Below, piece by piece: positions 6,001 to 58,267 of a stretch of 64,000 nucleotides of DNA. Where the stretch lies: positions 6,720,771-6,784,770 of the forward strand of contig CAJINV010000002.1 of assembly GCA_905178155.1 (NCBI GenBank), written 5' to 3'. A model generated the notes under the pieces. That model was given only the letters and a program-made list of their open reading frames with translations, was not told the origin of the DNA and made no database searches. How positions within the stretch are numbered: the stretch's first letter is position 1; each line of letters opens with the position of its first letter. A program made the translations under genes and the position numbers. The DNA comes from Amoebophrya sp. A120. Its lineage: Eukaryota; Protista; Dinoflagellata.

Positions 6001-9000
6001 CAGACCATCTACCCCACCATGGCGAACGACCACATGGCGGTCGCCTGGATGGAGCGCGGGCACGTGCAGCGGCGGGGGATCTTCGACAACCGCATGGACC
6101 ACGAGGCGGATGAGTACACTACGCATGTCGATGACGAGGAGATCCAGAAGATGCTGCGGGAGATCATCCAGCCCGGGCACCGGGGGAGCTTCCACGACCG
6201 GTTGGATGAGCGGCAGCTGCACTTGAACACAACGAAGGAGAATTTGAATCCCTACTTGTTAGCTCGTCCGATCACGACGGACGGGCGGTTGAAGTCCGCT
6301 CCGATCCGGAACAAGCAGTTGGAGAAGATCATCGCGGAATGCGAGGCGGAGCTGATCAACATCGAGCACGACATCCCGGAGATTCCGTCTTTCGTCGAAA
6401 CCTACAAGTACGGGGAAGTCGAGGGCTTCCGGCTCGGCGACATGGAGAGCCTGTTCCACGGGGTGCAGGACGACCCCGCGATCGAGAAGGAGAACCGGCT
6501 CCGGTGGCTCAGTCCGTCCTCCGGCCGCGTGCGGGCCGGGTCCTTCGAGGCGATCATGCACGAGCTGAAAATGTCGGATAAAATGGACATGGCCGCGGTG
6601 AAGCGGGGCGAGCGGGAAACGAGCAGGAGTTACACGTCGCGAAAGCTGGAGGCGATCGCGAAAGTCCCGGGATTTAACGACGAGTACGATGCGCTGCAAA
6701 TGTTTCCGGAGTTCACCGAGGCGATGGAAACGGGGAAGACCATTTTGGAGGAGCAAGCGGAAGTGTACAGGCAACGGGAGCAGGAGGCCATGGACGCCTA
6801 TCGCCGGAAAAAAATGGAGGGTGGAAAGGTGACTAACGTGAGCAGCGCAGTCGTGAGTGGACAACTACAGGCGGCGGAAGGGGAGGACAACATGGCTTCG
6901 ATGGCATCAGGGATGTCCTCGACGGGTTCAGCAGCAGCGCGAGCTTCCACAGCGTCCACTGGGAGTAGTGCCGCGGGTCAAGAAGCTCCTGCTGCACCTC
7001 CGCGGAAACCAACGCAGAACAATTTAAGCGGTGCTATGGGCGAGGGAATGAGCCTTGGCCCGCAGGTTGCGTTGTTTTACGACGAGGACGACGAACGGCC
7101 GTCTCGCGGCCGGTCGGACATCTTGGGCTCCGCGGGGATTGTTGATGACGACGTGGCGGGCGCAGCCAACATGGTCAGCATGTTCACCGGGGACGACGAC
7201 GACCCGGCCGGACACAAGATGGCCGCCAATTATGTTGACGCCACGCAGGAGCGACCGGTGATACAGCGCCCGACGGCGATACCGCCGAACGCCGTGGGGG
7301 GTGTGGGGGAAGTCATGATGAACCCGAATGCGCCCGCCCCGAGATCATTATACAGCGAGGGCAACCAGCAGCCCCCGAGTTCCACACATGCGCACTACCC
7401 GGGCAGCAAAGTTTCTGGAAATAGTAGAATAGGAAGCGGTCAAAATACTAAAGGCCCTTCATCGAAAAAGGCAACGGAACCCTACGCGGGCAGCAAAGTG
7501 TACTCGCAGCACCGCGACTCGTTCGCGAAACGGCAGCAGCGGGACCGCGACACGTCGTTGCGGCATTTGAGCCGGGACGAAAATGTGTTGGACGCGACGA
7601 ACAACAACAGTTCGCTCGACCGGGTGGGGAGAAACGACGCGACGTACCTGAAAGGGTTGGACCCGTACACGAAGGGCAAGCTGTTCGGGAACGAACAATC
7701 GATCGGCTCGCGCGCGGGTCTGGGCTGGAAGGATTTGCAACCGAACGCGCGCAAGAGGGACCGGGACCTCGACCGATTGGAGAACGAGATCCAGAAATCG
7801 ATCTGGAACGCGTCTTTGAAAGTGGAAGACTTGGAAGCGAAGGACGACGCGGTCCCGGACAGCTTTCAGGAGCAGGTGCCGCAGTCGAAGCGCGCGTTCG
7901 CGGCTTTTCTGGAGCGGTTCTGGCAGTTGGCATGCACCACAAATTACCACCTGGAATTGCGAGTAAATCTGTTGAAGCAGATTGTCGCCAAGGAAGCGAG
8001 GTACGAAACGTTAACCAGGGAAGAACTGGAACTACTGGACTGCAACAAGCCTGAGGAGGTTTTCGGCTTCTTCGAGAGCTCGATGCACACAGGGCAAAGA
8101 ACCCGCGCACGGCATTTTGAGGGCCTGACGCGGCGCGCGAGACGGAATTTGGAGGAGGAACACGTCTCCGTCGCGGCGATGGACTACAACGACATCATGG
8201 ATGAGAAGTTGAACCTCGAGCAGGAAATGAAGCAGCTGGTCGAGCAAAACGAGCAATTGGTCGCGTTGGAGAAGCACGAGCGCCGGCTGATGGAGCAGGA
8301 CATGCGGGAAATGCTGCACCAGACGCTGGTCTGGTGGGACACGTATAAACTGCAAAAGCATCGCACTCGTATAAATGCATATACAAATACTCTCAGCGTC
8401 AGAAATAAAATTTGTAATGCGGATTTACCATACGAAAATGCATGACTGCAATACGAGTGCGATACTTTTGCACAGGATAACACGTTGCGCAACCGGATTC
8501 TGGCCAAAGAGGAGGAGAACAGCACCATCTTGGAGCAGGAAGTGCACCGGTTGCGGTTCCTATCCACAGTAAATTTCCCGTACACGTACAAATTCGGAAT
8601 CTGCATGACAAAACTTGGGCTCTGCAAGGTAGCGAAACTTGTCATGCATTTTGTATGCCCATGTACAGGAAATTTACATTGCATAGCTCCAGTTCGAGGA
8701 CTACGCGAGCCACGAGGGCCGGTTCCGGGAGGAGTACGCCGCGTACCTGCGGGACCGGTCCGGCGTCGCGAAGGACCTGCAGCACATGCTGGGCTTGTGC
8801 ACGGTTTCCGAGGCCGCCACGATCCGGAAGGAAACGAAGATGGTGCGGCAGAAAACGCATCTGCTGGAGATCTTGCTCGACGCGCTGGAGGAGATCCGGT
8901 CGGTGAGATCGATGTACTACAACTTGGAACATTTCAGCAAACTGCCGGAATACTGGCGCGGCCAGGAAAACGCGGTGGGCGTCGACGCGCACAAACACGA

Positions 9001-39152: not shown

Positions 39153-40231
39153 ATGGGTGTGGTTGCCGAAGCGAAATTTCCAACGGTGCAGCTGCTCCGG
39201 CAAGCCGTGTCAGCGTTGAAAGAGGTGGACCCGCACATCCGATTTGACTTCAGATCCGGCACCGGCCCCGGGGGGGAGAAAAAGGGGATCTACTCCCGTT
39301 TGAAAGACGCCGACACTTTCGTCTGCGAATACTTTCTTGCTGCGGAGGCCTTGTTGGAGTGCAACTTGGAAGGTAGCTATAGCTTCTTGTTCATCGTCTC
39401 CAGGTTATCATTATTTTGCTTCATCAAGGTTGATGTAGCAGTAGCCGCCCGAGGAGGTGTCCTCGCAACTATAATCGTTTGCGCTTAAAAATAAACCGTG
39501 TCTGCGCAGTCGTCATGCATCCTCTTCTCGATATAGTACAAAAAAAATCTTAGGTGACTACGAATTCACTTTCGATGCGAACGAGATGCTGAAGCTTCTG
39601 AAGTACGGAGAAAACCAGGACCGCGTGACTCTCGTCATGGACGACGAAAAGGCCAACATGCAGATCCAAATTGAACACTGGAACCCGCCGCCATCGAAAA
39701 CCCTAAGTTACGAATTGAGTGCGGTCGACATGGAGAAGGATGACGTGCATCCCCCGCCAATGGAGGAGGTCAAAGCGTGGCCCTTTGTACAGATGGAGGC
39801 TTTCAGCTTTCAAAAAAACTGTGCCCGAATGGCCGACGTAATCAAGTGCAGAGGAACGGGAGCAGGTACGTAAGTTAGTATAGCAAATAATGGAGAGGCA
39901 CCGCAGTTGGAAGTGGAATTAAATGATGAATTTTGCATGAAAGTATTAAAAGGTGGAACATTCGCGAGGCACGTCTCAATGTTTCATAGACAACATCACA
40001 ACGTCCTTTATCACAGACAAAATCATCCGTCTTCTGGCCAGCAGCGAGAGCCTCAGCATCGTTCACGAGGACGATGAGGCGAACGTTGGTTTTCAAGTAA
40101 AATGGCGAGACGAGGCGGAAGGACCCGAGATGCTTGCGAAGCAGTGTCCCACCCACACAACTGGAATGGGTATTAAGTTGGGCGACTTTGATATTGCTCC
40201 AGGTCGATTTGGTGTGCTCAAAAACCCGTAA
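39153..40231 (+). CDS. Highly divergent PCNA-like sliding-clamp protein; exons 39153-39372, 39554-~39865, ~39953-40231 (last junction unresolved)
   Basis: AEAKFPTVQLLRQAVSALKEV, EMLKLLKYGENQDRVTL, SYELSAVDMEKDDVHPP and VQMEAFSFQKNCARM align by eye, in order, with PCNA FEARL..GSILKKVLEALKDL, SMSKILKCAGNEDIITL, DYEMKLMDLDVEQLGIP and VKMPSGEFARICRDL; GT-AG intron 39373-39553. Confidence 0.65.
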
Positions 40232-40610
40232 TTCTGTGCTAAATGCCGCGTTGGCGTTTTTTGTTTTTTCAATTTTGCACTATTTCTAGAATGAACGATG
40301 GCGATACGAACCGAAATACAGGTAACTGCATTCACGATGGATGGTACCGCATCGATTTCTTCCAAACAGTATGCCACAGAAAGAAATTCGAAATGGCTTT
40401 CCGCAGTAGGATTTTGTTTGTTTGTTACTTATCTACTCCTATGCAATGCATAGTATGCATTTTGCATCGCACCACCAGCGTCAGGCGTGAGCCGTAGTGT
40501 GCCTGTCTCAGCATTGTAGAGGATGTGATTTGAGTTTATTGACATTGACGACATAGACGCCATTTTCCTAGTTTCGAATTCCATACATCGTCGCCAAGGG
40601 CGGTAAGCAG

Positions 40611-43388
40611 GTGTCCGAGTCAACTGTCATGCTCTTTCCGCCAGACAAGAGCAAGATGCTAATGGTAGGCTTTCTCTTCCGGCTCGACGACGCGGTGTCA
40701 AAAGCGCTCAAACAGGACGAAGTGTACAACAAAACTGCCGAGGCATTTCACAATGACGTCAATGCCGTAATGCAGCAACAGATGGAGGTGATAAAGATAA
40801 TGACTGCTTCTTCCTCCATGATAATCGGTTTCTGTTCTTTGTGCTTCTGTGGCCCATTATCCTTTTACGACGACACGCGCGGTCTGACTGCTCTTAATCG
40901 TGTTTGCGTTGACCACTCTTCCTGAAGTTTATCAAAATGAGAACCTCTCTTCTGAAGTTTATCAAAATGAAAACCTCCAGGTCGAGCAGAGCATTGAGCC
41001 CGAGGACGAGGAGATGCGGCCCCGGCAGTTGCTCTTCGAAGACGACCCGATATTCAGAAAAAGACACTCATTCCCATCCATTTTATGCATGGCAGATGCT
41101 GGAGCGTGGAGCTGGATTCGATTGTTGGTGCATGATTCGCATGACATAATGGATGAGGATGGGTCTTTTTTCTGTGGATACCCGATGGCGGAGAAAATTA
41201 CCCACTTGGATGATGATATGGAAGCGTCAGGTTTGAAATCGTCAAAGTTGAAATAATTTGTAATGCATAAAATGCATGGCCCGAGGTACGTGCGTTGCAG
41301 AGCAGGCAAGTGAGGCCGATTGTCAGCCTGTTTGGGGTTACAGATCGAGCTGGTAAAGTAGCATGAGAAAATCGCTCTTCTTTGCCTAAACAGCATGACA
41401 AACTGGATTTAGGGACCACCGAAATTTGTCATGCGCCACTTGGAAACTGGGTTCCAACTGGCATCCATTTGATGCATGGCAAATTATTTCAACTTTGTCG
41501 ATGTCAACTCTGACACATCCATAGATGAGGTGCTCAAGGACGCCCCCGACAACACGCAAGCGAAGTTGTTCGGCTATCCACTGCAAAAGTATCGTACTCG
41601 TATGAATCGCAGGTATGCATGACAAATCGGGTTTCCTACCCAAATCTGCATTACAAATTCCAATTTTCTTCCTGATAAAATTTGTCATGCGATTTATACT
41701 AGTACGATACTTTTGCAATGCATATCGGCGAAGCCCGGTCCATTTGCAGCAACGTACGGAAGCTAGTGCAGCAGAAGCACAAGGTAGACAAGGGAAAGCA
41801 GGCGGCAAACAGTGTCAATATGCACGCAGCGGTTGGGAGTGGTCTTCGTCTTCTCGGAACCAACAATAACGCATCTTCCTCATCTTCCTCCAGTGCGGCG
41901 GTTGGGATAAATAATTCCGACTTGCTTCTGGATAACAACCAGAAGCAAACGGAGGAAGAATTAGATTTCAACTTAATGAATTACGAGGAGGAAGTGGCAA
42001 AGAGCCGGGAAACGCTCGCGGAAAAACTCTCGCAGAACAAACTCTCTGTCAAGCAGCTGCAGACGCTGCGAGGTCTTGTTCTAAACATAAGTCGCTTGAG
42101 TTCATCTTTGTGACTCTTTTTTCTGCATAGAGTTAGAGAAAGAAGCAACAGCAATTAGCGCCAGAAGACAGAAAAAACCTTTACTTGCAGTTGAAGGCCC
42201 TAAGGTATTATCCACGCAAATCATGATGTTCATGCCGCGCTTGCGCAAAAAATTCTTGATCGAGTCACAATTACAATAACAGAGCAAACGCGCGGCGGCC
42301 CGCTGGACGACGTGGTGATCAACGCGTGTGCGGAGCTTGCCAGAAAATTTCCGCAAGAGATCGAAAAGATTATGCTGTGCAAAAGTATCTCACTCGTACT
42401 AACTGCAAACGTGCATGACAAATCTCCCTCCTAAGGTAAAACAGCATTACAAATTCTACTTGTCTTCTGGCCATAATTTGTAATGCAATTTGTGCTAGTA
42501 CGTTACTTTTGCAATGCATAAAGATCAAGCAGCAGCAACTAAACCGCGAGACCAAGTACGGCTACATGGTGTTTTTCTGCCAGTCCATGGATATCAAATG
42601 TAAAAATGTCTGGGTCTGAAAGATTGCAACTTGTCATGCTGTTTTTGGATTCCAGAAGAATCTGTATTGCATGAGTACCAAAAGGAATGTAATTTGTGCT
42701 ACGCGGAGAGGGCGTTTGTCATGCGGAATAGGCATCAAGAAGCTCTCAAAAAATCTGTGATGCTAGGGCATGCATCGCAGACATCAAGGCTCATGCAAAA
42801 CGTGCATGACAAGTGTCAGAATCTTCCAGACCCAGACATTTTTACAGTTGATAATGGACGCGCCAAAGCTGAATGAGTTTGAAGACAGTGACGACTCGGA
42901 CGAAGACGGAGAGGCGGAGGAACTGGACCGGGAGCGGCTGAAGGACTACTACATTTGGGACCGAAGACAGTATTTGGCGACGGACGTACCGGGGCAAATG
43001 CGCACCGACGGGGCCTACAACGCAAACCGGGCTGCCGGCTCGGATGACATGGATATTGACGGGGGCGGTAGCATATCAAATGCAAAAATGTCTGGGTCTG
43101 GGAGAGTGCGCGATTTGTCATGCAGCTTTTCGATGACCCATAAGGTCTGGAATGCAGGACTAGCGTGACAGATTCTGCGCGATCTCTCTCATGCCTATCC
43201 TGCATGAGAAACTCCCTCCCGACTTGGTCAAAACTGGACGACTTTTGGGAATCATGCACCACAGATTTTTGCATGCTTCAGATTTAGCATGACAAGTTGT
43301 ATTCTTCCAGACCCAGACATTTTGCATTTGATGTAGCATCGCCGGCGACCCGGCGGAGGGCGCACCGCCGGAGTTCGTGATCAAGTGA
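40611..43388 (+). CDS. Multi-exon protein of unknown function with five introners and several canonical introns; 5' end and the ~42070-42290 junctions are uncertain
   Basis: In-frame joins QQME|VEQS (GT-AG 40788-40980), LDD|EVLK, KLFG|EARS, IEK|IKQQ, QSM|DAPK, GGS|IAGDP...VIK*. Confidence 0.6.
41217..41523. mobile_element. Introner, family F
   Basis: tatggaagcgtcag...caaagttgaaataatttg / caaattatttcaactttg...ctgacacatccata; perfect GATGA direct repeat. Confidence 0.9.
41575..41724. mobile_element. Introner, family C (150 bp; reverse complement of 51084-51233)
   Basis: tatccactgcaaaagtatcgtac...gtacgatacttttgcaatgcata; perfect TCGGC direct repeat. Confidence 0.95.
42371..42520. mobile_element. 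Introner, family C-like
   Basis: tatgctgtgcaaaagta...tacttttgcaatgcata; perfect AAGAT direct repeat. Confidence 0.9.
42592..42853. mobile_element. Introner, family A (reverse orientation)
   Basis: Family A TIRs; perfect ATGGA direct repeat. Confidence 0.95.
43074..43333. mobile_element. Introner, family A (forward orientation)
   Basis: Family A TIRs (right end reads ...tttgatg); perfect TAGCA direct repeat; interior similar to 16993-17254. Confidence 0.95.
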
Positions 43389-44569
43389 AATAAACGCCGG
43401 CGAAGGATTTTTTATGTTGTTCCTGAGCCAAAAAGGCTAAGAGTTCAACAGAACATCTTCTGCAAGAACTGCTGCTCGTCAAAGAGGACAAGAAGAGGAA
43501 CAATGCGATCCGCTGTGCTGTTGTTGCCTGCAAACTCTTGTTCACGACCAGCACATCAAGATTAATTTTCGAATTGAATTCCTCGTCTCATTGTCGCAGT
43601 GCGAAAGATCGTGTCCCGCTCGACAAATCTGTACTTAAAACCGGCACGCGCCTCCGCCTGCAACACACGGCAGATTAAGTCAAAAGGATCTAACAAACTC
43701 AGAGTGCTGACGTCCACAAAAAATAAGTAATTTCGGTGACCTGCTCTACAAAGAACTTCTACCAGAACAAGTGTGTGAAAGATCATTGTCTTCAACAACT
43801 CCCAGCGGGAAGATCTAGGTCACTGCAACTGTACACAGAGATCATTACCGAAGTTTGTCTATCAGGAAAGGATGAAAGAGAAACGCTAAGAACAGCTGCG
43901 CGCTTCTTCACGAAGGTCTGACTTTTGATCTAGTATCAGCAGCATTCACGAACTGAAGATCTTTGTGGCTGCGTAACAGCTGAGAAGGATGATCATTCAC
44001 GGACAAGTAAAAACGAATCCAAATCCGATCCTCAGTGACAAAAGAAAAGATCAAGATCCATCATGTTGTCGGTCGCCGCGATCCAGAATAATATCCAAAG
44101 AGAACGCTGCGACGAAAACGTTCGCAGTTCGGTGACAAAAAGGTTTAGGTACCCAGCCCAATGGTATTTGAATTGCTCTTCGTCTTCGTTTCAGTTGGCG
44201 ACGCCAAAACAAACTAGATTGATAGGTTAAGATAGCATCATATCCATCGAAACGCGATTTGGTTTTTCTTTTCTGTGTAGCTACTACTACTAGAGATAAA
44301 GAAGGACAGCATCAGCACTTTACGTTCTATCTCTGCTCGTTCGACGAATTGAGTAAATCTCTCGTTCGACGAAGTGAATGATTTAGTGCCGCTGCAAAGT
44401 TTTGTCTTTATTACAAGCTTAAAACCATCTGTATGATAAGAAATAGCAAACGGTAGCAATTTTCCCTCCCCCCGATGACGAACGTGAACAAACCACACGT
44501 TTAAAGTATAATTTCTTCTGAACATCAGAAATAGAAGATAGCCGCTTCATCAAGAAACTATGACTAAAG

Positions 44570-47500
44570 ATGCCAACGACCCGAACAGGAACTCCGTCGT
44601 TCCCATCTACTCCCACGTCGTTTAGCAACTCCTCGCGACGCGGGAGGTCGAGGTTTCATATGTGCGAAAATTTTGGCTCCGGCGACGCGGACAGCAACGG
44701 ATTGTCGCCGTCCTGCCCGTCGTCCTCTGTGTCCGCCGAGGACGATGATTTTGATAAAGACTGCGGTAATTATGGGTGTCCACAAGAAAGTGAAAGAACA
44801 ATTGGAGGAGATGAAAGTGAAACGCAGCCGCTTTTCGTTTCTCGTCCCTCAACAGCAAGAACGCCCACGCGAGGACGGGCAGGTTATTCTGGGCAAGAAG
44901 TTCTTTCTCGAAAAAGACAACTCCTGGATGAAACAAACTTTCCGGCGTATTTTCCACGAGCCCGCTCATCAGCAGCTGGAGCCACTGGACCACCATCATC
45001 TCCGACGTGCGATACTAGTGGTTCTTTTTTTCGTCACAACACGTCGTCAGTCATGGGTTCCAAGAAGAATTCTGTTGACAGGACCTTCGATAGCGACGAC
45101 AATCGATACTATGCGAGCGATAGTGACCTCGACGAAGAAGATAATTATCCCACCGGACGAGGACGAAAGATGAAAGGTGCGGCCGCTGGAAGTGCAAGTA
45201 ACGATGAGGTCGATCACGATGATGACTTCGAGGAAAATCCTTCCTCCAGTTCTTGCTGTGCCTCTTGGTGCGTGGCCATTTGGCTGCTCGTTATCGTCGG
45301 CTCCTCCGCCGTGGTTGCGGGGGTCGTTGTGGCCGTCTACTACTTGGGTCGAGCTCACGGCCACGACCCGGATCCAATTATCCCAGTGGAGCCGATTATA
45401 CCGGTTACCCCGATTATACCGGTGATCCCGATTATACCGGTGATCCCGATTATACCGGTTATCCCGATTATACCGGTAGTCCCAATCTACCGCAACCAGG
45501 CCCGGTCATTCCAAACGAGAGTGCTGAGTTTCGTCAATGTTACAACTCCGCTCGGGGTTCCGTGGAAAGTGCAGAACGCTCTGGACGAGTTGCAGTTCGA
45601 ACTGATACCAAGTTTGCGACAGCAATGCTACGAATTGTACAACACCTCCTCCAGTGGTCTTGGTCAAGCAGGCAGTGCGACATCAAGTGCCAGCTCGTGT
45701 CTGCGATTCGAGGCTTTTCGTGGTGAAGCGGCGGTTGTGACGAGCACCAAGAACGGTGGTGGTGGTGCTACTTCTGGTCCAAGTTACAAAAACGAGCGAA
45801 TTCTTATGGCGTTCTCAACTGTTACATTCTCAACTGTTACAATTACATGAATTTGTCAGGCAAAAACAGCAATAGGCAAAGGGGAAAGCTTGCAAGTCTT
45901 GCATCACAAATTTGGCACGGATTTAGATGCTGTGTAGCACTTCGATAATTTGTCATGCGAAGCAGCTTGATCGTCTTGCGGCTCATGGTCATTTTGCATC
46001 ACAAATCATGTAACAATTGAGAATGTAACGTTTGAGAGCGCCATAATTCTGTTCCACGAGGTTTATCGCATGAATTTTGACTACACCGACCCGGACACGA
46101 AGAAGGTCATTCATGTGGCCGATGGCTTCAGCGTCTTTCGGAAGTCGCCCGCGTACGTCGCTTTTCAGAAGGCGATCGGCGAATACGAAAAGGACGGGAT
46201 CCTCATGGAAAACTTCTACGAGGATGAAGAAGTTGATTCTGCGGCTCATACTGCAACTAGTACTTCTCAAGAACAAATTTCGAGTAAAAGCACCACTGTC
46301 GTCGACTTCTGGTATGGCGATCCGAAGACGGGAAGCAGCAGCTCCCGTTTTGCCCTGCAAGATGTCAACGACTGGAGGAAGGCAGCGGAGACAAGCCTTG
46401 CGGTTGCGGAAACCGAGGTGTTTGCGTTCGCCTCGCGGCAAGATGCGGCAGCACTGAAGAATGTGACAGATGAGATGGAACAGACACAGATCCCGGCGCT
46501 CATTGCCGCTTGCGAAGGAAGATCTTTAACTGCCACGGGGGACGACAAGAAGGCGTGTCTCTATGTGGATGCGTTCAACTTCAAGATCCTCAAGGAGCCG
46601 GCTCAACACCCTGCTCCACCTGCCAGCACAGGGTCGTCCGCTGCAGGAACGACCCCTACAGAGGCCCGCTACGTCCTGCAGAAAGCGTATCCCACCGCCG
46701 CCGACCGGACCAATTTTGAACAGAACACCCCGGCTTTCAAAAACTTTCAAAACTGGCTTTTGTCGGAAGAGGTGCAGAAAGTGCTTGTGGACGCCAAAAC
46801 CGTGAGTAGGAGCACTGCAGTTGCAGCAAAAAATGGCACAATTAGTAGCACTTCCTTGAAGATGTTGAAAGGGACAACAACTTCTTGCCCTGTTGATCCA
46901 TGTAATTATGGGCCGAAGCAGGCGTCGCTGGATGTTGTAACTCCTGCTAGTACCACGACTACGACGGCGCCTCCAAGTACGACTGGTCCACCGGCGACCC
47001 ATCCATCTTCTTGTATCGGGCAGCAATTTGGATTGGAAAACCTGCCGACCTTGTTCACGAACAACACCACCATCCAATTTCGTTACGATGCCGACTTCCA
47101 TGCGGTGCAGGCGGCGGTGCAAGATTTTGTCGAAAAGATTTTCCCGTTGGTGAAGACTCAATGTTTGGAATTAATGGCGGATCTACGGAAGTTGGACGCA
47201 GCTGCAAACAGGAGTCCCTACACGGGTGCAAAGCAGCTTTGCGAGCGGTTTCACTACTTTGAGCGACGCGTGGAAAAAACCGAGTCAACATCTTTTTTTC
47301 CCCAAATCACGACGCAGCTCGCGACCCAGGAAGTCTATCCTGATAGGCTGGCCTTTCGGAAGTACATGTGGAAAAGTGCGGCGTTTCAGAGCTTGGTGAC
47401 TGCGGTGCGCGAAACATACAAAGATATCATCGACTTTCCAGCGACTAAGATTTACTCCGAAGTAGCGACTACATCTCTGACAACATCGGCAGGAGGAGTT

Positions 47501-50500
47501 GCACGAGCAGGTACGGTGGAACAAACTACAAGCGGAATTATAAACGGCGCTTTGGCCGCCGCCGCTTTTGGTGATTTCGGACGACTGAACATCGCAGGTG
47601 GAACTAAATCAGCACCCGCAGTAGAAGTATCAGACGGCGACATGCGCATGCAGCAGGATTCCTATGGGAACGGCAGCAGTTTAGAGCTCGCGAAAGCGCT
47701 GGGGAACGGAAAAATCCTCACGAAAGACCAGTCCGTCTGGCCGGCCACGACGTTCCTCCGCGTAGAGACGCTGTGCTTCACCGAAGACGCAGTGGCAAAT
47801 AAAGGCAAAGAGGTGGAAAAAAGCAGGCTGAAGTTAGAGAATGAACTTTTCCCCGCCTTGATTTCCTCTTGTGGGACCAGCTCGACCGTGGAGCCAAATT
47901 GCTTTTTCTTTGACGTCTTTAAATCCACGGGCTTCGGAACCTCGACCGAGATCGTAGCTGCTGGCGGAGCGGGAGCCCCAGCCCCCACCTCATCAACTTC
48001 AGTAGACAGCAGATACTACATCCTCCAGCAAGGGTACAAGGACCAAGAGACCGTGAAGTCCGAGCACGAACGAGCTTCTGCCTTCCAAGCTTTGAGCTCG
48101 TTCCTCTCCGACCCGAACGTTGCGGCTCTGTTCGAGAAGGGTACTTCTAACGAAGGGGGAGATGACCAGCAGAGCAGTACTTCTTCTAACGCTCTGCAAC
48201 TGTACAATGCCGGGGAGTGGCCGCATGCGGTGGATCATGGCAAGCCTTTGCACGCTGTGACCCACTACTTGCTGTTCACCAATAAAGCTGATATCTACAG
48301 CGAGCTCCTCCAGAATGCCTTGGACGAGCTGCAATTCGAGCTGATCCCTGCGTTGCGAGGCGAGTGCTACGACGACCCCATATTGAATCCCTGTCTGCGG
48401 TTCGAGGTTTTTCGTGGCGCGCGGGAGGCTCGGAAGCCCGGCGCGGCGGAGACGCAGCAGCACGAACTCCTCATGTTCCACCAGGTGTTTGAAAACGAAC
48501 AGGCCTGGCAAGACTTCCAGACCAATTCCCAAGCCTGGAAAGACTACCAGACGGCATTGGGGAGACAAGACTTCAAACAAATTATTGTCCAGGAAGAGAA
48601 CAACGGAGACTCTTTTTTCGAAGGCTCGGATTTTTTTCTCTACCGAAGCACTGCGGCATTTGCCCGGGACGAAGTGAAACAGTGGCAAACAAAGGTGCGG
48701 GACAGCGAGGTGGTTTCAGACACTGGTGTGTTGGAGTTTCAAATCGCGGTGCTGGATCATCAACAACCTTACGCCGGCACCGAACAAGACGATCGTCTTA
48801 TTGCACTCAAAGCTGCAGCGGCGTCGTGCGTTGAGGCGCGAGTCAAAATGGAAGACCTTCACGTCCCCGCACTGCAGGAAGCGTGCGCAGATTCCGCCGG
48901 GTGTCTCTACTTCGACGCTTTTCGAAATTACGTCGAGACCACCACACCTGCAGCATCGCCCTCAGCAGGACGAGCGGCAGCTCCAGTAGTTTCCTTATCT
49001 TCCACTCCAAAGTCGCAATCGCTCCAGAACTACACCTACTCGCTGCAATTCGCCTTCCAAGACGCGCTTGCGCGGACGACCTTCTATGGCGTGCTCAACT
49101 GTTACATTCTCAAATGTTGCATGGGTTTGTGATGCAAGAATGGCAAAAGTCAAAGCAGGGAGGTTGCACCTGTAGCGTCACAATTTCCGCACAGATTTAG
49201 GTGCTGTTTAGCCTTTCCAAAATTTGTCATGCGAAGTAGCTTCACCCTGTGAATGTTGATGCTCGTTTTGCATTACAAATCATGTAACAGTTGAGAATGT
49301 AACGTTTGAGAACGCCATACCTTCCAGAGCGCAATCGCGTTCACTTCCTACCAGAAATTCGTCGACGAAACCTTTGCCGCACTACCCACCTATCAAATGT
49401 AAAAATGTCTGGGTCTGGAAAAATGCAACCTGTGATGCTGCGTCTGCATTATCCAAAAATCTCTATTGCATGAACAGCAAAAGGGGTCTGGTTTTGGCCA
49501 CGGCGAGAGGGCATTTCTCATGCGGTATAGGCACCAGAAAGCCCTCACAAGATCTGTGATGCTAGGGCATGCATCGCAGACATCAGGAGTCACGCAGAAT
49601 GTGCATGACAAACCTTGCATCCTTCCAGACCCAGACACTTTTGCATTTGATACGACCTGCCTCAAGTTCCCAGCGGACGGGCCAACTCTCGGGAAAATCG
49701 ACCCGGTACCCAGGCGCGAATTCGGGATTTTGAATTTACCGACACTGTTCAGCGTGACCAATAAACTGCAGTTCAAGCCCGACGCGGACTACGACAAGCT
49801 GAGCGCGGCGATAGAAGATCTAACAAAAAACCTGTTCCCCGCGGTGCGGAAAGCTTGCGAGAAGGAAGTTCCGCCTTTTCCCCGCGGTGCGGAAAGCCTG
49901 CTGTGTGAACGCTACAACGTGTTTGAGAGACAAGTGGACGTTGTTTCTACGGGGGAAGGTAAGAGTACAACATCAAGTCCTATCAAGGCCGTGCAGTTTC
50001 TTACGCAGGAACTGTACCCCGACCGGTATGCGTACACACAACTGATGCTGCAAGACGACGCGCTGAAGCAATTGCAAGCAGCCGTGGCACGGTACAAAGC
50101 TGATGGCTTAGTGGAGGAGGAGTCCATCAGTAAAACCGCAGATCAAAGCAATCTTCTCGCCCTGCAAGCCGGGGACTTCGCGCGACTAAACGGCCAAACC
50201 GACGCCGACCTGCGCAGCCAAAGCCCGCCCGTCGGCGGCCTGCAGACCGCACGGGCGCTGTTTGATAAAACGACCGCACAGGACGTTGACCCCAATGCTG
50301 CCACCTGGGGAAAGGTCGAAACTCTGCGGTTTACGGATGACGCGGTGGAGAACCGGGCGGATGATGTGGCAGCAGCGGTGAAGGAGCTGGAAGAAACAGT
50401 GCTCGCGGATTTGGTGACCGCGTGCAAAACCTCGACGGACTGCCTCTTCTTCAACGTGTTTCGGAGTACCGGATTCGGCACCAGTATTGAACAACACCTG

Positions 50501-53500
50501 CAAACTTCTCAAACAAGTACGTCTGAAGATGTTCTTGGCACGACCGGAAGTAGTACAACCAGTGCAGGGGCGGCTGGTCGTGAGGGTCGTGAACACAAGT
50601 ACAACAAATCCTACTCTCTCCATCAGGCCTACAAGAGCGAAGCAGCAGCGAAGACGGCGGAGCAGGCTGATGCTTTCCAGAAGCTGGTAAAGTTTCTCAC
50701 AGAAAGCGACTTCGCGGGACTTTTCGCTGTGGACGAAGAAGAAGAACAGCAGGCGTGCAATAAACTCCAGCTCTTTGGTATCCCACGAAAAAACTGTTTC
50801 ACTGTGATGGTTTTGCAAGATCCGCATCACAAGTTTGCTAGACATGACACAGAAAATTTGCCATGCGCGTTTTCCAAGGGAAAATACGCGTAAAAATCCA
50901 ATGCCTTGCAGGTGTAGCAAGACAACTAGTTCTGTGTTCCATTCTATGCATCACAAGTTCACAGTGAAACAGTTTTTTCTTGCGATATTTGGCGCCGGCC
51001 AGTGGCCGCGAACATTCAAGGACCCGCGCGTGGTCTCCCTGACGCAAGCCTTCGCGTTTGTCTCGGACCAGCCAGGTGCAGGTTATGCATTGCAAAAGTA
51101 TCGTACTAGTATAAATCGCATGACAAATTTTATCAGGAAGAACATTGGAATTTGTAATGCAGATTTGGGTAGGAAACCCGATTTGTCATGCATACCTGCG
51201 ATTCATACGAGTACGATACTTTTGCAGTGGATACAGGTGACCTCCAGTTGAAGGTCCAAAACGCGCTCGATCGGCTGCAATTCGAATTGATTCCGGACTT
51301 GCGCAAAGCTTGCTACAACTATACTGGTCCACCTGGTCCTGGTGCTAAAAAAGGAATTATAGAACAAGGAGGACTAGCAACAGCGGATGATGATGTCCCT
51401 GATGTTGAACAGAATCCTTGTCTGCGTTTCGAGGCGCACCGCGGGAGTGCGTTGTTGCGAGAGGATGCGCAGAAGAAACAGAAAATCCCGCACGAGCGGA
51501 TCATGCTGCAGCAGGTTTTTCGTGACAAGGAGGGCATGGCGGCGTTTCAAAACGGAGCCGCATGGACGACTTTTGTCGCCGCGCTCCAGGAATGGGGAGA
51601 GAAAGAAAAAATCCTCGATGTGTTGCCTCCAGAAGCAAGAACAAACGCCGCTGGACGAACTACAAGGGCAGCAGCTCCTCCTACGGATTCTACTTCTGTT
51701 GATGACGCTGGTGCAGCTACTACAACAGGAACATCAGCTTCTGCTTCGCTGCCAAGTTCTTGGAGTGCTTTTCTAGACTTGTCGTCGTGGGGGCGCGGCC
51801 GCACGACCGCCGGTGCACCGTTTATTCCGTCAACATCTTCTGTTTCGGCAAACGACTGGTTTTTGGAGAACGACCTTTCCCAGGACTTCGTCATCCCGAG
51901 CACAAAAACCTCAGAAGACCACGCCAGCGGAGCAGGACCACCTTCGTACCAGTTCACTGCTCAATATGCCCGGGACTCGCAGCTAAACGATTGGAAAAAA
52001 CGCGCATTCGACAGCTCCGTGGCTGCGACAACACGGGTCTTTGCGTTCACAGACGATCCGGCGAAGAGGGACTCCGTGAGGAAGATCACGGTTGAATTGG
52101 AGAGCACGCAGCTAGGCTTTTTGTTCGCTGCGTGTGGCGAGTCGTCAGCGGCCTCCGCAGCTTCATCATCAAGTGGGTGTCTGTACGTCGACGCCTTCAA
52201 GAAGAACGAAAAAGTAACTGCAGCAGGAGGGTCTACAACTACTACTTCTCTCCTCGCAGTTGTAGAGGAAGGTCAAGATGATGTTTTGACAGGCAGTGGT
52301 GCATCTTCCTCTTCGTTATCAAGAACCGCTACAACTACTACAACTGGCGCCAGCGTAACCTATGTTTTGCAGGAGGCCTTTTCCGATCAAGAAGCTTTCT
52401 TTGCTTTCCTGCAACGGACGGCGGCGTTCGAAACGTGGGTGAACTCACCCGAGGTCCAGGCGGTGATGGTGCATGATGATCTGCCCCCGGGTCGTCGTAT
52501 GTATGATAGCTTGCCAGGTGCAGCAGCCCGGGACGGAGACGACTTCGTCGGTAGACAGTTTGGCCTCCAGGACTTGCCGAGCCTGTACAGTTTGAGCAGT
52601 ACCATCCAATTCACGTACGGTGCGGGAAACAACCTGGCGGACAAGTTCCGCAGCGAACTGTTCCCGGCAGTCAAAGCAAGTTGCTTGCAAAAATTGAAAG
52701 CGTTCCGGAAGAGGGACTACATTGCCGACGACCGATTGTTCTGCGAGCGTTGGAGCTTCTTTGAAGACAGTGCCGTTCCTATTGCAGGAGGTAGTGGTGG
52801 GAGTAGCTTGCCGCAATCACAACTTTTACACGTTGACAAGGCACATGACGACAAAAATTTTCCTCCACTGGAAGGTACCAGTATCAAAGATGTGGAGCAG
52901 GGCCAACACATCGCCAACCTGACCTTGCTAGACAAAAATGTTCCCACCAAAGAGAACGCATTTTCACCACTGTTGCGAAACAAATTTTTGGAGCCCCGAA
53001 AGAGCGGCACAAGCAGGACACTTTTATCTGATAAAAACGAGCAGCTGCAGCTCAACAAGAAAGAAGCGCCAGCATCTCCTGCTGCCCCCCTCTCCACAGA
53101 AGACAAGGAGTTAAAGGGGAGCCAGAACATCGTGAAAGTGGTTCGCTTCACGACGCACGAGGTCTATTATGAGAGTGCACAACCACAACCCCGTCCCCCT
53201 CGTCCCCCTTAATTGTCATGCAATATACCTCCAAATTCACGGTCACGGTGGATTTATCCACTATTCGGCTTTACCGTGTGGCACTGCTTGCATGACAGAC
53301 TCCGAAAGCCATAACAGCGTTACTATACAATCGCTACGTAAAACTAAAAACTTTGTCATGCAAAAGCTGCATCAGCTACAGGTACAGCTTCAGCATCTGT
53401 GCCTCCGGGACTCGTGTTGCTGCGGATGCGATCCAAATGAGGGTGAGGGGGAATTTTATTGCACTCTCATATTTATCCAGACCGCCACGCGTTTCTCGAG

Positions 53501-56500
53501 TATGTGAGGACCGACGCAGCGTTTCAAAACCTGATACAAGCAGTGATGGACAACAAGGACCTGATTGATTTCACAAACGGCCGCACCAACATTTCGTTTC
53601 TTTCCAAAGACCACGACGGCACGGGCCTTATGCCCGGTGGGGACTTTGTGCGATCCCAGGCACTGTATTCGGTCTCTGCGCCGCTCTCGGACGCTCTCTT
53701 CCGCGACCAGCAGCCCGCATACGCAAACGGGTCTACTTTACCTGCGGCACAGGTGCTGAGCGATTCGCTCCCGCAGAGCGAGAGCGTGTGGCACCCCCAG
53801 TTAGGACCGCAGGAACAGACGTCGGGGGAGGTTTATGTATTGAAATTCAAAGACGACGTGCCGGAAGCGCAGATTGCGCACGCCGTAGCGTCGTTGGAAC
53901 AGGATGACGGTTTTTTTCCATCCTTGTGCGAAGCATGCCGACTGCAACCGTCTTGCTACTACTACAACGTGTTTCGCAGCACGGGTTTCGGCACCTCTAC
54001 CGATGTCGTAAGGAGCGCAGCGACTGACTACAGCAAATCCTACACGATTCAAGCCGCATTTAAAAATAGCGTGAGTGCAGTTGATCAATTCGAGCAGACT
54101 CCGGCGTTTAGTAATTTCAAGGCCTTTCTTGAACAATCGTCTGACTTGTTCCAGCAGGACGCGTCATATAAGTCCCTCCAGCAGTATCGCGAGGGACAGT
54201 GGCCCCACGTTGTGGACCCTTACGCGGGCACGGTCAGGAGTATGAATTTGCTCTTCACCTTCGCGGAACCCGACGAGACAACGGACGCGGGCTTGCAGGC
54301 GGCAAATGACATCATTGCTACCATCGACGAACTACAATACAACCTGATCCCAAACTTAAAGGACGCGTGCTACGGGCCGCAGGATGAAAGCACACTGCAG
54401 CTGTACAACAAGAAGCACCTCTACTCAGCTGGACAAGAACAGCCGTTGCTCGGTGCAACACAAGAAGCCAGGAGGAGCGCACCTCCTGCTTCTGCTGGGA
54501 GAAAATTTTCTGGGCAGCAGAAATTCTCGCCCCAGGTAGAAGACGTAGCTGGAGAAGGTCCTCTACTTCGCGGGGAGCCTGAGCGTGAGCGTGAGCAAGG
54601 AAGAAGTTACATTAACTCAAACTCAGGTCGTGGTCTTGCTCCTGTGCTCACCGCCGACCTAGATAAACCAAAAAGCGAAAACGTCGACCCGGCACAGCCG
54701 GGGTGTTTGCGCGTCGAAGTCTATGCCGACAAGAACGCGGAGGGGAGAATCAAGACGGTGCTCTTACAGGTGGTTGTGCGTAGGGAGAATTGGCCTCAAA
54801 TGGTAGACGACGACCACGGCGTGCTCAAACCGATCCTGGATAAGCTCAACGAAAGCAAGTCTGCTGGGTTATTGCAAGAACTCGACGCGGACCACGAGGT
54901 GCTCGACAATTTGGTGAATACGAGTGGTTCAATCAGGTCTGGAAACGACGCCGCGGACAACTTTGGATTTCTGGTTAGCGGAAAAATGACCGACTCGGCA
55001 GCAAGCGCCTTGGACCTTGTGGTCTGGCAAGATTCAACATCCACTACTTCGGTCGCCGCTGCGAGGACCGCGTTACTGCACGATAGCAATGTTGTTGCGG
55101 AGACGATTACTCTCGCCTTCAAGCCAGGGGTTTCTGACGGGAAGGAATTCACTGAAGTGTGGAAGGAGCTCAACACAAACTTTTTCCCCTCACTATACAA
55201 GGCTTGCTACAAGGACGTCGACGCTTCTTCTAGAAGTACTGCACCCGGTGTTGAAAGTGATTCCAACTCGGAACTAGTCTTTACCTCTCCTGGCGCTTTA
55301 AAAACGACCAGTGCGGTGAGGAGCACGACGAGACAGCAGGCGCAGGTAGAAAGGCGAACTAGGACATCAGAGATAACTACGCCGACAACAAGAACTCCTG
55401 ACTGTCTTTATGCCGACGTGTACAACTACACCCTACCTTCAGACCAGCGGGGCTATCTGCTTCATTTTGCGTTCGCGAGTCAAACCGCTCGCGACCGGTT
55501 CTTCGCGGCTGCCGGGCCCAAGAGCTTCCAAGAGTGGGTAAAGAACGACGAAACGCTACAGAAAGTTCTTAGGAAGCCTAGCCGCACACTCGCTCGCTTG
55601 TCGCAGTTCGGCCTGGAAAATCTGCCGGGGCTCTTCAGCGTGCAAATGAAAATTCACATTTTCGATAGGATCGTGTGGGCAGAGGTGCTAAGGAAAGTCC
55701 AACAGATCAAGAAGGACGTGTGTATCCTGCAGTATCACAGCCGTGACCTGTGCGAGCGGTTTAACGTATACCTTGCGAATAGTGGCGTTTATTCCGTGAA
55801 ACTCAACTATCCCCATCCCCTTCGTCATGCCACCCACACAACATTTAGGAAAGTCTGTGTTTGTCATGCAAAAAATTATAGATGGGGATGGTTAGAAATT
55901 TTCACGGAATAATGTTGTAGCGGGTGCCACAACTGACTATTTTGTGACCACGCACGAAGTCTACCCCGACGCTTACGCCTGGCGGCAGCATGTGTTGAAC
56001 TCGGCTGCATATCAGGAACTGCTCAAGTCCGTCAAAAGCGCTTACGACAACAAAAACATTGATGCAAGTGACACCGTGCTTTACGGCTTCACGAATCCCA
56101 ACATCGACGAGAAGAAGGTTCTATCAACTGTAAAAGTGTCTGGGTCTGGAAGATTGGCAGCTTTGTCATGCATACTTTGCATGACCCGTGAAGTCTGTAA
56201 TGCATGCACGAGCATCACAGATTTTTAGAGGGCTTCCTAGTAATGCCTATTCCGCATGAGAAAGCCCCTCTCCGTGTAGCCCACCCGCCAGGAGTCAAAT
56301 GGTACTACTACTACTCGTGTAGCCCAAACTGGAGTCCTCTTGCAGGTCACGCAATACAATTTTTTTTTGAATCCAGAGACAGCATCACAAGTTTAGAATC
56401 TTCCAGACCCAGACATTTTTGCATTTGATAGGTCCCCTTTCCCATGACCGGCTACCTTCTCCGCCAGGAAACCGAGTCGGACGCGAACATGCGGACGCGG

Positions 56501-58267
56501 GACGGGGCGGGTGCCGCGAAGGACCGCAGTTTGGCCCCTGCGTTGGCACTTCACGACCATCTGCCCAACCAAACGAAGTGGCCGGAGCCGCAGGGTAGAT
56601 TGAGCCCGGGGGGACAGACGTTGATACTGCAATTGAATCCGAAACTGTCCAAGAAAAAACTGTGGAAAAAGGTGAACTTCTTTTGTTGCTGTAGTATTTT
56701 TGCAGAAGATACAAAGATGCCAGTTGCAGCTACGCTAGGCATGTTGTTTGATATGCATCCGGGATACGCTCCGCTAGCTGCAAATATCGTGTTCTGATCA
56801 CGTGCTAGCCAAGCAGGACAGGACTTCTCTAATGTGCAGAAGATGCTAGTAAAAATAGTAATAGATATAAAATGCGTAGGCGAAAAAAATGTATAAGCTT
56901 AAGTAATCGAAGAGCTAAAGCGCAGAGTAACTGTAACACAGTTTTTTTCTTCGATACGAGTTGATGGAGCTCGCGGCCAGAGACCCAGATGCGGCGGCGT
57001 GGCTGCAAATGTGTACCAAAGTGAAAAGTGCCCCTACCTCCCCAGAGCAGCGACATATTTGTAAATACGAAAAACTTCTACTTCTCCGTGGGAGCATTGC
57101 GTTTTTGCCTCCTTGCGTGTGTCCTTAATAGCGTCACAAGTCTCTTTTCCCAAACACCGTGATGCTGCACATTGGCAGCCGCGGCAGCACAGCAGACGCG
57201 GTATAATTTGTCAACACGCTCCTGGACGAGCTGCAAATCTCGCTCAGAAAGATTCTGAAAAAAGAGAGCGTCGCACTTCTTTCATGCAAGACAGAGAGAC
57301 TCCAACTTCTTTGTGCTGAGGACTGTGCATCACAAGAAAAGTTTCGCCCGTCTGGTGGTGGGGGTTGGGCATGATTTCAGTTTGATATTGTGTCAAAACT
57401 ATTTGGAGACCCAGCTCCTGCCCAACATCATGGACACCGATTGCGGAATTTACGATCCGGGAAATTTCAACAAGAACGATTGCATCTACTGGAATGCGTT
57501 CAAAAGTTATCCATTGCAAAAGTAACGTAGAAGTGCAGCTCGTACCAGGTGCTACTTGATTTTTGCAGTGAGTCATGCATGACAGATCTCGTCCGGCTTT
57601 CCAGTCTATATCAGCCTTGCAAAGAGCGTCACTTTTGGTTCTGAAGAATTTGCATTTGTAAATGCAATTTCAATTATTTCTCCTACGTACTAGGATCGCA
57701 TCGGTGCGAAAACGATACAACTTCTGCAATGCATAAAGGTTGGGGGTTCACCAACAAGGTCGGGCGGGAAAGATATTATATCTTGCAGGAGGCCGACGGT
57801 GTCAAGGGTCTTTCGACGAGGAACTACGGAACCGAGTGGCAGAACTTGGTAACTTTTGTCCAGGTATCAAATGCGAATATGTCTGGGTCCGGAATAAAGT
57901 TGGAACTTGTGATGCTGCATTTGGATTCTAAGAAAAGGCGTGTTGCATGAGCAGCCCAATTTTTGCTGCGCCGAAAGGGCATTTTTCAAGCGGGATTTGC
58001 ATCAAGAAGCCCTCAAAAACTCTGTGATGCTAGCGCATACACCACAGATATCATGGCTCATGCAAAACGTGCATGACAAAGCTGCACTCAACATCCAGAC
58101 CCAGACATATTTGCAGTTGATACATGAACAAAGCGTACAATGACCAAAAAGGGCACCAAACCTTTCCTTTGCTTGAAGAGGGGAGCAATTTCTACAAATA
58201 CGTAAGCGAAGAGCTTAACTTCGAAAGCAGTCCATTTGAAGATGCTAATTCTCCATCTCGTCCTTGA
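44570..58267 (+). CDS. Giant (~3,535 aa) type II membrane protein with 16 Cys-paired ABM-like repeats; exons 44570-45804, 46051-49084, 49325-49390, 49658-50778, 50993-51083, 51239-53167, 53477-55789, 55917-56121, 56436-56678, 57401-57507, 57741-57864, 58128-58267
   Basis: Single TM segment (WCVAIWLLVIVGSSAVVAGVVVAVYYL), PIIPV stalk, then repeats such as LQFELIP.LR..C...CLRFE.F, QPGCLRVEVY, CERF..FE and TQEVYPDR; all joins are in frame and the exon total is 10,608 nt. Confidence 0.8.
45374..45488 (+). repeat. 18-bp coding tandem repeat encoding (PIIPV[I/T/E/V])n stalk
   Basis: ccgattataccggtgatc-type units, about 6 copies. Confidence 0.9.
45805..46045. mobile_element. Introner, family B
   Basis: Family B TIRs; perfect ATTCT direct repeat; joins ERIL|FHEVY. 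Confidence 0.95.
49085..49319. mobile_element. Introner, family B
   Basis: Family B TIRs; perfect CCTTC direct repeat; joins TTF|QSAI. Confidence 0.95.
49391..49652. mobile_element. Introner, family A (reverse orientation)
   Basis: Family A TIRs; flanks CCACC/CGACC; joins ALPT|CLKF. Confidence 0.95.
50779..50987. mobile_element. Introner, family G
   Basis: tatcccacgaaaaaactgtttcactgtga / tcacagtgaaacagttttttcttgcgata; perfect TTTGG direct repeat; joins QLFG|AGQWP. Confidence 0.9.
51084..51233. mobile_element. Introner, family C (150 bp)
   Basis: tatgcattgcaaaagtatcgtac...gtacgatacttttgcagtggata; perfect CAGGT direct repeat. Confidence 0.95.
53168..53471. mobile_element. Introner, family H
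   Basis: tatgagagtgca...tgcactctcata; flanks TCTAT/TTTAT; joins HEVY|PDRH. Confidence 0.9.
55790..55911. mobile_element. Introner, family I (122 bp)
   Basis: tattccgtgaaa...tttcacggaata; flanks GCGTT/ATGTT; joins NSGV|VAGA. Confidence 0.85.
56122..56430. mobile_element. Introner, family A (forward orientation, with an internal insertion/duplication)
   Basis: Family A TIRs; flanks GGTTC/GGTCC; internal repeated cgtgtagccca. Confidence 0.9.
57508..57735. mobile_element. Introner, family C-like
   Basis: tatccattgcaaaag...cttctgcaatgcata; flanks AAAGT/AAGGT; joins FKS|WGF (cf. FKSTGF in sister repeats). Confidence 0.85.
57865..58122. mobile_element. Introner, family A (reverse orientation, degenerate flanks)
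   Basis: Family A-like TIRs; flanks CCAGG/CATGA match at only 2 of 5 positions, but removing element + 5 bp restores the frame. Confidence 0.8.

What the first reader, a model, noticed from the sequence alone, without database searches (positions are those of the whole stretch)
41575..51233. The same 150-bp introner sits in opposite orientations in two sense-strand genes
41575-41724 is the reverse complement of 51084-51233; I saw about one substitution. The target duplications differ (TCGGC vs CAGGT) and both host genes are on +. This indicates very recent DNA transposition and orientation-independent removal. A spliceosomal donor/branch/acceptor signal carried by the element could not normally support that, and reverse-splicing of an RNA intermediate would not produce it.
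Basis: partly seen in the sequence, partly recalled or inferred. Interest (0 to 1): 0.85.

Follow-up and report, generated by a model that had tools for sequence, protein, structure and literature searches.

The report
Transposon introns spliced in either orientation
Two near-identical 150-base mini-transposons sit in opposite directions inside two genes of the marine parasite Amoebophrya and are absent from its RNA-derived contigs; they belong to an already described intron family, but older neighbours fit a single fixed cut position beside the element's ends, likely set by its hairpin and end motif rather than by normal splice signals.

Summary
Observation confirmed: 41575-41724 (A) is the reverse complement of 51084-51233 (B), 149/150 identical, with different 5-bp duplications, both in plus-strand genes. 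RNA-derived contigs remove A plus one duplication in 4 of 4 runs; B's removal follows from contig arithmetic in one run and a public protein record. A DNA-like run keeps both. The window encodes proteins labelled Amoebophrya sp. A120, and these TAT...ATA elements are its published introner elements (Farhat 2021), so the kind is known. Either-orientation introners are known in Polarella, so orientation alone does not exclude the spliceosome. Not found in the papers I searched: eight neighbouring elements with decayed duplications allow only one common cut, one base before TAT and four bases after ATA (p about 0.007 after correction). One joint has no microhomology, arguing against a reverse-transcriptase artefact, and the asymmetry points to RNA-level cutting. 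No GT-AG rule holds in that register. Best guess: a modified spliceosome lacking U1 snRNA, guided by the terminal hairpin (0.55); rival: nuclease plus ligase, as proposed for euglenids (0.3). Earlier scan notes had other introners in other genomes, not this rule.

The parts
41575..41724 (+). Copy A: 150-bp TAT...ATA inverted-repeat element; predicted excised intron 41574-41728
   Evidence: (joint 41569->41725 in 4 of 4 runs)
41570..41574 (+). Upstream target duplication of A, TCGGC (second copy 41725-41729)
51084..51233 (-). Copy B: same element in opposite orientation in a plus-strand gene; predicted excised intron 51083-51237
   Evidence: removal from contig arithmetic and record P0002
51079..51083 (+). 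Upstream target duplication of B, CAGGT (second copy 51234-51238); also offers a GT..AG reading
39153..43388 (+). Host gene of A: PCNA_N-domain protein, 612 aa model with 5 GT-AG introns and 7 TAT...ATA introns (end coordinate counted by hand from the translation)
   Evidence: first 597 aa identical to P0001; PF00705, E 1.7e-06
44564..58267 (+). Host gene of B: 3546-codon frame (stop to stop) after removing 12 elements; no Pfam family; three upstream removals (45805, 49085, 49391) are in silico only
   Evidence: (1638 aa identical to P0002)
42371..42520 (+). Third member of the 150-bp family, same orientation as A, 78% identical, removed in RNA contigs
8344..8479 (-). Fourth, older relative in B's orientation (73%); no RNA laid here
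42592..42853 (+). 262-bp family copy, orientation X, removed
43074..43333 (-). 262-bp family copy, orientation Y, in the same gene, removed (3 of 4 runs)
56122..56430 (-). 262-bp family copy, orientation Y; decayed duplication allows cut after duplication base 4 or 5
57865..58122 (+). 262-bp family copy, orientation X; decayed duplication allows cut after base 3 or 4
56646..56956 (.). Old element (starts TGT); joint 56644->56961 has no microhomology and fixes the cut after base 4
   Evidence: (4 of 4 runs)
40370..40585 (.). Old element in host A; cut after base 4 or 5, read from a loose end in X1, X3, X4 and from P0001
   Evidence: (table 7)
40788..40980 (+). Canonical GT..AG intron, fixes the strand of host A
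42073..42282 (+). Canonical GT..AG intron, fixes the strand of host A; has ATA at -7..-5

Best explanation
A and B are two copies of a gene-less inverted-repeat element of Amoebophrya A120, likely spread by DNA transposition, that lie in opposite orientations in two plus-strand genes and are cleanly absent, with one 5-bp duplication, from RNA-derived contigs, likely removed from pre-mRNA at a fixed position by a modified spliceosome guided by the terminal hairpin. Shown: structure, duplications, orientation, precise removal of A (direct joint) and of B (contig arithmetic, public record), removal of both orientations of a second family. Inferred from eight neighbours: the cut is one base before TAT and four bases after ATA, so the intron is N-TAT...ATA-NNNN and A and B would be excised as CT..GG and TT..GG. 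Inferred, untested: the symmetric ends fold back and present the same motif either way round; N-TAT stands in for the donor (U at +2, A at +3) and the A at -7 would be the branch point, in a U2-type spliceosome in which no U1 snRNA was found.
For: Joints. All 16 removals examined (13 listed joints, 2 from contig arithmetic, 1 from a loose end) equal element plus 5 nt; only the cut after duplication base 4 fits all 16; chance 0.0011, 0.007 after allowing any of 6 registers. The mirror register (base 1) is excluded by 7 of the 8 informative elements, as expected for a transcript-directed cut. Hairpin forms in both directions: A -55.1/-63.8 kcal/mol, z -10.1; B z -9.1; 22-23 of 25 terminal pairs. 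The register puts T at +2 and A at +3 as in GTA donors. In PMC7789003 Table S4 all 9 predominant A120 non-canonical motifs and all 9 A25 motifs have T as second base (may partly reflect the aligner). That paper found U2, U4, U6 (and U5 in A120) and 83 of 89 spliceosomal proteins but no U1 snRNA (section 10). 3 of 5 canonical introns of host A have AT at -7/-6 like the elements (P about 0.01, noticed after the fact).
Against: No lariat, branch or enzyme evidence was obtained. In the pinned register the first two bases are CT 8, TT 8, GT 6, AT 5 and only 1 of 27 ends in AG, whereas spliceosomes normally need G+1 and a terminal AG (established knowledge). The +2 T follows from the element's own end once the register is set, so 27 of 27 is not 27 independent observations. 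The hairpin would bury both sites and have to be unwound. Euglenid hairpin introns of similar geometry are released as circles and thought to use other machinery (PMC11282704 section 6; PMC12501133 passages). The register rests on 8 elements in 2 genes, one study, contigs only (majority path); A and B themselves have perfect duplications and cannot pin their own cut. PMC7789003 Fig. 3 legend calls splice sites variable relative to the hairpin. The outermost pairs of A fold weakly with flanks (pair probability 0.1-0.4).
Confidence: 0.55

Rival explanations
1. Same elements and same fixed cut, but removal is by a spliceosome-independent RNA endonuclease plus ligase that measures from the hairpin base (1-nt 5' and 4-nt 3' overhang), as proposed for euglenid nonconventional introns.
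For: Free first and last bases; fixed offset from a stable stem; euglenid introns pair from +4 and -6 and are released as circles; an internal motif GCAT(G/C)ACA that could bind a dedicated factor lies in 24 of 27 elements and 0 of 5 canonical introns.
Against: Register places U at +2 and A at +3 like a donor; Table S4 motifs in both strains keep +2 T; no bulge-helix-bulge-like pairing of the 4-nt overhang with the upstream exon across 15 elements; no candidate enzyme was looked for, as no genome is held.
Confidence: 0.3
2. Copy B is simply a canonical GT..AG intron whose two sites come from its CAGGT duplication (as in Polarella class 14), and only A needs an unusual route.
For: B reads GT..AG with the cut after duplication base 3, giving the same mRNA; the dinoflagellate precedent; 15% of A120 canonical introns have this repeat structure (PMC7789003 section 11).
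Against: Only 3 of 27 elements offer any GT/GC..AG reading; for one of them (56122) the RNA joint excludes that reading; base 3 is excluded by 3 of 8 informative elements. It does not explain A.
Confidence: 0.12
3. The joints are reverse-transcriptase template switches across a hairpin flanked by direct repeats, and the elements stay in the mRNA.
For: Hairpin plus short direct repeat is the known artefact signature (established knowledge; PMC2923612 seen as search listing and start of abstract only); all RNA evidence is cDNA-derived contigs.
Against: Joint 56644->56961 has zero microhomology and two others only 1 nt, yet all keep the same register in 4 of 4 runs; retaining A or B shifts the frame and truncates the proteins; the joined form is the main contig path.
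Confidence: 0.03
4. The elements are excised from DNA in transcribed somatic copies (ciliate IES-like), which would be orientation-blind.
For: TA-rich ends and inverted repeats recall IESs (recalled, untested); orientation independence comes for free.
Against: DNA-like run X5 contigs pass from inside A and B into the flanks, and one passes through the whole 53168 element without a gap; a strand-symmetric DNA cut should give the mirror register as often, but it is excluded in 7 of 8 informative cases. Contigs drop rare forms and most X5 joint rows were not shown, so a rare excised DNA form is not excluded.
Confidence: 0.04
5. On age only: the 99% identity comes from gene conversion between two older copies 9.4 kb apart, not from a recent jump.
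For: Other family members in the window are 73-78% alike; a conversion tract would also stop at the element ends; the copies are close and inverted.
Against: Both duplications are perfect (16 of 27 are), as expected for young insertions; 97 identical pairs are reported in A120.
Confidence: 0.2

Closest known systems
Introner elements (IEs) of Amoebophrya sp. A120 (Farhat et al. 2021, PMC7789003; sections 10, 11, 12, 16, supplement parts 2-3 and passages read)
   Same: Non-canonical introns with terminal inverted repeats starting TAT + 7 nt + AAA, short direct repeats (5 bp in Fig. S19 legend), hairpin, repeated families, identical pairs; the window's proteins match records labelled A120.
   Different: Same family, not a relative. 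The paper's text treats splice sites as variable and the border as unknown; no passage on element orientation relative to the host gene came up in main text or supplement searches. Figures could not be seen.
A120 TIR-DNA introner families of Gozashti et al. 2025 (PMC12130899; passages and 21 of 58 A120 rows of dataset sd07 seen)
   Same: Most rows are classed as TIR DNA elements with mixed, largely non-canonical sites; fam17 (372 copies, 149 bp, 25-bp TIR) resembles the A/B family in size, not checked by sequence.
   Different: Automated calls give duplications of 2-5 bp and three different splice-site models; no common register in the rows seen; the methods passage requires same-orientation similarity.
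Polarella glacialis and Aureococcus anophagefferens introners (10.1101/2020.10.14.339549, passages; Aureococcus paper itself not read)
   Same: DNA-transposon introns with target duplication, several classes working in either orientation.
   Different: They use GT/GC/GA..AG sites from element or duplication and so need suitable targets; here target bases are free.
Euglenid nonconventional introns (PMC12501133 section 5 and passages; PMC11282704 section 6)
   Same: MITE-like, direct repeats make borders slidable, non-slidable cases reveal a fixed offset from a terminal stem with the longer overhang at the 3' end.
   Different: Different motif (CAG...CTG inside the intron) and offset; unrelated lineage; circles shown there, untested here.
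Fritillaria borealis non-canonical introns (via review PMC11282704 section 6 and passages of 10.1101/2025.08.15.670264)
   Same: Transposon-derived non-GT/AG introns removed by an adapted U2 spliceosome.
   Different: Ends are constrained (AG-AC, AG-AT) and lie at the inverted repeats; here first and last bases are host-derived and free.

Membership tests
Amoebophrya A120 introner elements | Host is A120 | tested here: met
   Two window exons match 100% to records labelled Amoebophrya sp. A120
Amoebophrya A120 introner elements | Inverted repeat starts TAT, 7 nt, then at least AAA | tested here: met
   Both ends of A and B by sequence; 17 of 27 elements at each end
Amoebophrya A120 introner elements | 3-5 nt direct repeat at the borders | tested here: met
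   TCGGC, CAGGT; 16 of 27 perfect 5-mers
Amoebophrya A120 introner elements | Repeated intron, removed in RNA | tested here: met
   B by arithmetic
Non-autonomous TIR DNA transposon (MITE) | TIRs, target duplication, no coding capacity, dispersed copies | tested here: met
Non-autonomous TIR DNA transposon (MITE) | Cognate transposase; empty site in a relative | not testable with these tools
   No genome held; no transposase family among 16 proteins scanned; raw-read runs X9, X10 cover no exon
Canonical U2 intron | GT/GC..AG ends | tested here: not met
   A has none at any cut; B only at a register that neighbours disfavour
Spliceosomal intron (any) | Lariat with branch A; snRNP dependence | not testable with these tools
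   Only contigs hold the exons; no raw reads of this strain were offered
Polarella/Aureococcus-type introner | Splice dinucleotides carried by element or recruited from the duplication | tested here: not met
   3 of 27 offer such a reading, one of them excluded by its joint
Euglenid nonconventional intron | Terminal stem with fixed offset | tested here: met
   (offset differs: 1 and 4)
Euglenid nonconventional intron | CAG/CTG motif near +4/-8 | tested here: not met
   Ends read TAT...ATA
Euglenid nonconventional intron | Release as full-length circle | not testable with these tools
   Needs RNase R / outward RT-PCR data
tRNA/archaeal bulge-helix-bulge intron | 4-bp helix between upstream exon and intron 3' end | tested here: not met
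   No consistent pairing at 4 offsets over 15 elements
Group I/II or other Rfam RNA | Rfam match | tested here: not met
   0 matches at gathering score in 40300-58400

The most novel reading that the evidence does not exclude
A120 has a second, non-spliceosomal splicing system that recognises a transposon's own paired ends (TAT...ATA hairpin, perhaps with the internal GCAT(G/C)ACA motif) and cuts at -1/+4 regardless of orientation or target sequence, erasing any insertion plus one duplication from mRNA: a general transposon-erasing RNA machine that makes insertions in coding sequence nearly free.
Probability: 0.3. Interest if true: 0.85.

Novelty: already known. Interest (0 to 1): 0.5.

Why it matters
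The elements are known and the public gene models already splice out both copies, so the finding is not a new kind of element. It matters because how Amoebophrya removes more than 60% non-canonical introns without a detectable U1 snRNA has been open since 2021, with the border declared unknown. A fixed -1/+4 cut that holds in both orientations and for unrelated families gives exact intron ends and a predicted branch position, which turns the spliceosome-versus-nuclease question into a direct test; A and B are a natural pair differing only in orientation and context. I found no statement of this register or of orientation independence for Amoebophrya in 7 paper searches and term look-ups in PMC7789003 and its supplement; figures, subscription papers, bioRxiv supplements and 37 of 58 A120 rows of PMC12130899 sd07 were not seen and could hold it.

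Tried and rejected
No genome is held, so the genome-wide orientation tally, copy number and transposase search could not be done. No run is on record as RNA; X1-X4 are guesses, treated as RNA because their contigs join across GT..AG introns. The first lay at 90% likeness was swamped by other copies and hid real joints. My first guess, a cut after duplication base 3 matching B's GT..AG, was rejected by three joints. Bias of duplications towards a proto-splice site: not seen. Bulge-helix-bulge pairing: not seen. Rfam: none. A third protein search, meant to give more canonical introns, found nothing, so the -7 AT idea rests on 5 introns; three of their coordinates were wrong and corrected. Dropped from the 27-element list: 8 weak candidates without RNA joints (12916, 21159, 26711, 28988, 30874, 44321, 53666, 58479), two nested inner pairs (41590, 51099) and two cross-pairs. 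Orientation of 24000 is only weakly resolved. Earlier-findings look-ups by words and by place found nothing on this genome.
Full report
1. Observation. A (41575-41724) and the reverse complement of B (51084-51233) are identical at 149 of 150 bases; identity stops at the terminal TAT and ATA, and the 30-nt flanks match at 5 and 4 positions. The flanking duplications are TCGGC and CAGGT. The element is only 72-73% palindromic, so orientation is well defined: A against B scores 87 forward and 295 reverse. Contigs of the DNA-like run X5 run without mismatch from unique flanks into the right ends of A and B, which are the two different arms.

2. Surroundings. The window is full of such elements: 12 strict TAT...ATA elements with a perfect 5-bp duplication against 0 in each of 50 shuffles; with relaxed scans and RNA joints I list 27, about 10% of the window (dropped candidates are named under Tried and rejected). 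The longest frames lie on plus throughout. Removing each element plus one duplication turns six separate frames into one of 3305 codons around B, and keeping B alone breaks it; with the RNA joints it reaches 3546 codons. Host A is a PCNA_N-domain gene whose model matches record P0001 for its first 597 residues. P0001 and P0002 are labelled Amoebophrya sp. A120 and already read across A and B.

3. RNA evidence. No run is on record as RNA, but contigs of X1-X4 join across two GT..AG introns on plus, so they are spliced transcripts and host A is plus-strand. The joint 41569->41725 (155 nt) stands in 4 of 4 runs (2 samples, 1 study). For B no joint row was displayed; one X1 contig has pieces ending at 51234 and 50773 with 91 letters between, the exact length of the exon left when B and the 50779 element are each removed with one duplication. 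A second family confirms orientation independence with direct joints: 42592 and 57865 (orientation X) and 43074 and 56122 (orientation Y) are all removed. Tally in the window: 150-bp family 2:2, 262-bp family 3:3 plus one weak, 235-bp family 3:0, one pair 2:0; too few to test 50:50, and host strand outside 40.4-58.3 kb rests on reading frames.

4. Where the cut falls. With a perfect duplication the cut can slide over six positions. Eight elements have decayed duplications. Of 16 removals (13 listed joints, 2 by contig arithmetic, 1 from a loose end) all equal element plus 5 nt, and only a cut after duplication base 4 fits all; base 3 is excluded by three, base 5 by two, base 1 by seven. Chance under a uniform cut is 0.0011, or 0.007 allowing any register. 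Joint 56644->56961 has no ambiguity at all. The intron is therefore N-TAT...ATA-NNNN. Caveats: two genes, one study, majority contig paths; the ends of three old elements (40370, 56646, 57014) were placed by eye from their inverted repeats, checked by the plus-5 rule; A and B cannot pin their own cut. In this register first bases are CT 8, TT 8, GT 6, AT 5 and 1 of 27 ends in AG.

5. Mechanism. Insertion: inverted repeats, site-specific 5-bp duplications, both orientations, and a mobile unit that differs from the excised unit point to DNA transposition and against reverse splicing (inference). The mobiliser is unknown; PMC12130899 reports an A120 TIR family with integrase-like homology (passage), a lead only. 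Removal: zero- and one-base microhomologies in the same register argue against template switching; DNA contigs keeping the elements and the one-sided register argue against DNA excision. Both orientations fold the same terminal stem. I favour a modified spliceosome (0.55): the register places U at +2 and A at +3; Table S4 of PMC7789003 lists T as second base in all 18 predominant motifs of the two strains (possibly aligner-influenced); the spliceosome is nearly complete but no U1 snRNA was found; 3 of 5 canonical introns of host A share AT at -7/-6 (after the fact). Against it: no G+1, no AG, buried sites, and the euglenid parallel with circles, which gives the nuclease-ligase rival 0.3. B alone could be a duplication-derived GT..AG intron. 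An internal motif GCAT(G/C)ACA occurs 58 of 62 times inside elements, in 24 of 27, in both directions, at position 41-47 in 15 of 27, and in 0 of 5 canonical introns; it may be a transposase or splicing-factor site.

6. Comparison. These are the A120 introner elements of Farhat et al. 2021 (PMC7789003 section 11: TAT + 7 nt + AAA, 3-5 nt direct repeats, 97 identical pairs). Figures and several supplements were not visible. Earlier scan notes e1-9811460 and e1-7133361 describe other introners in other genomes; they are unchecked leads and did not change my reading.

7. Verdict. Real, correctly described, already known in kind. The added value is a precise, testable cut rule for an unsolved splicing system. 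Interest 0.5.

Noticed in passing
window, 27 elements (e.g. 41617, 41683, 51118, 51184): Motif GCAT(G/C)ACA lies inside elements 58 of 62 times, across families of different length, often 41-47 nt from an end; no mention found in the main text of PMC7789003.
   Followed up: partly
window 43074-43333: Record P0001 reads into this element, whose end is GATG instead of GATA; RNA joints in 3 of 4 runs remove it and give a different, shorter C-terminus (612 versus 627 aa).
   Followed up: yes
window 44564-58267: Host B would be one protein of about 3500 aa with internal repeats and no Pfam family; the public record covers only 1639 aa; related stretches also at 61497-63136.
   Followed up: partly
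window 21068-29587: Tandem array of five RING-finger genes (four scanned, PF13920); the copy at about 22756-24667 carries two elements (23609, 24000) while the others read as single frames, a possible empty-site comparison.
   Followed up: no
window 39373-42282, canonical introns: A at -7 in 4 of 5 and AT at -7/-6 in 3 of 5 canonical introns of host A; possibly a fixed branch-to-acceptor distance.
   Followed up: partly
window 43252-43323: Raw RNA run X9 has about 170 reads from a related 262-bp-family element end at 90-95% identity continuing into other sequence, and no exon cover: a different strain or species with a relative of the element present in RNA.
   Followed up: no
window 63506-63857: Element with a decayed duplication (CAACC/CGACT) outside the laid region that would test the register.
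   Followed up: no
window 61918-62994: Near-identical direct duplication (95-98%) around the window's single N at 62408; possibly an assembly join.
   Followed up: no
window 47816 and 53910: Single-base insertions, each in one contig of one RNA-like run; probably errors.
   Followed up: no
window 17128-18615: Acyltransferase-3 frame (PF01757, E 2.8e-17) downstream of the 16993 element.
   Followed up: no
window 2438-2836 and 45374-45481: Coding tandem repeats of 54-60 nt and 9 nt.
   Followed up: no
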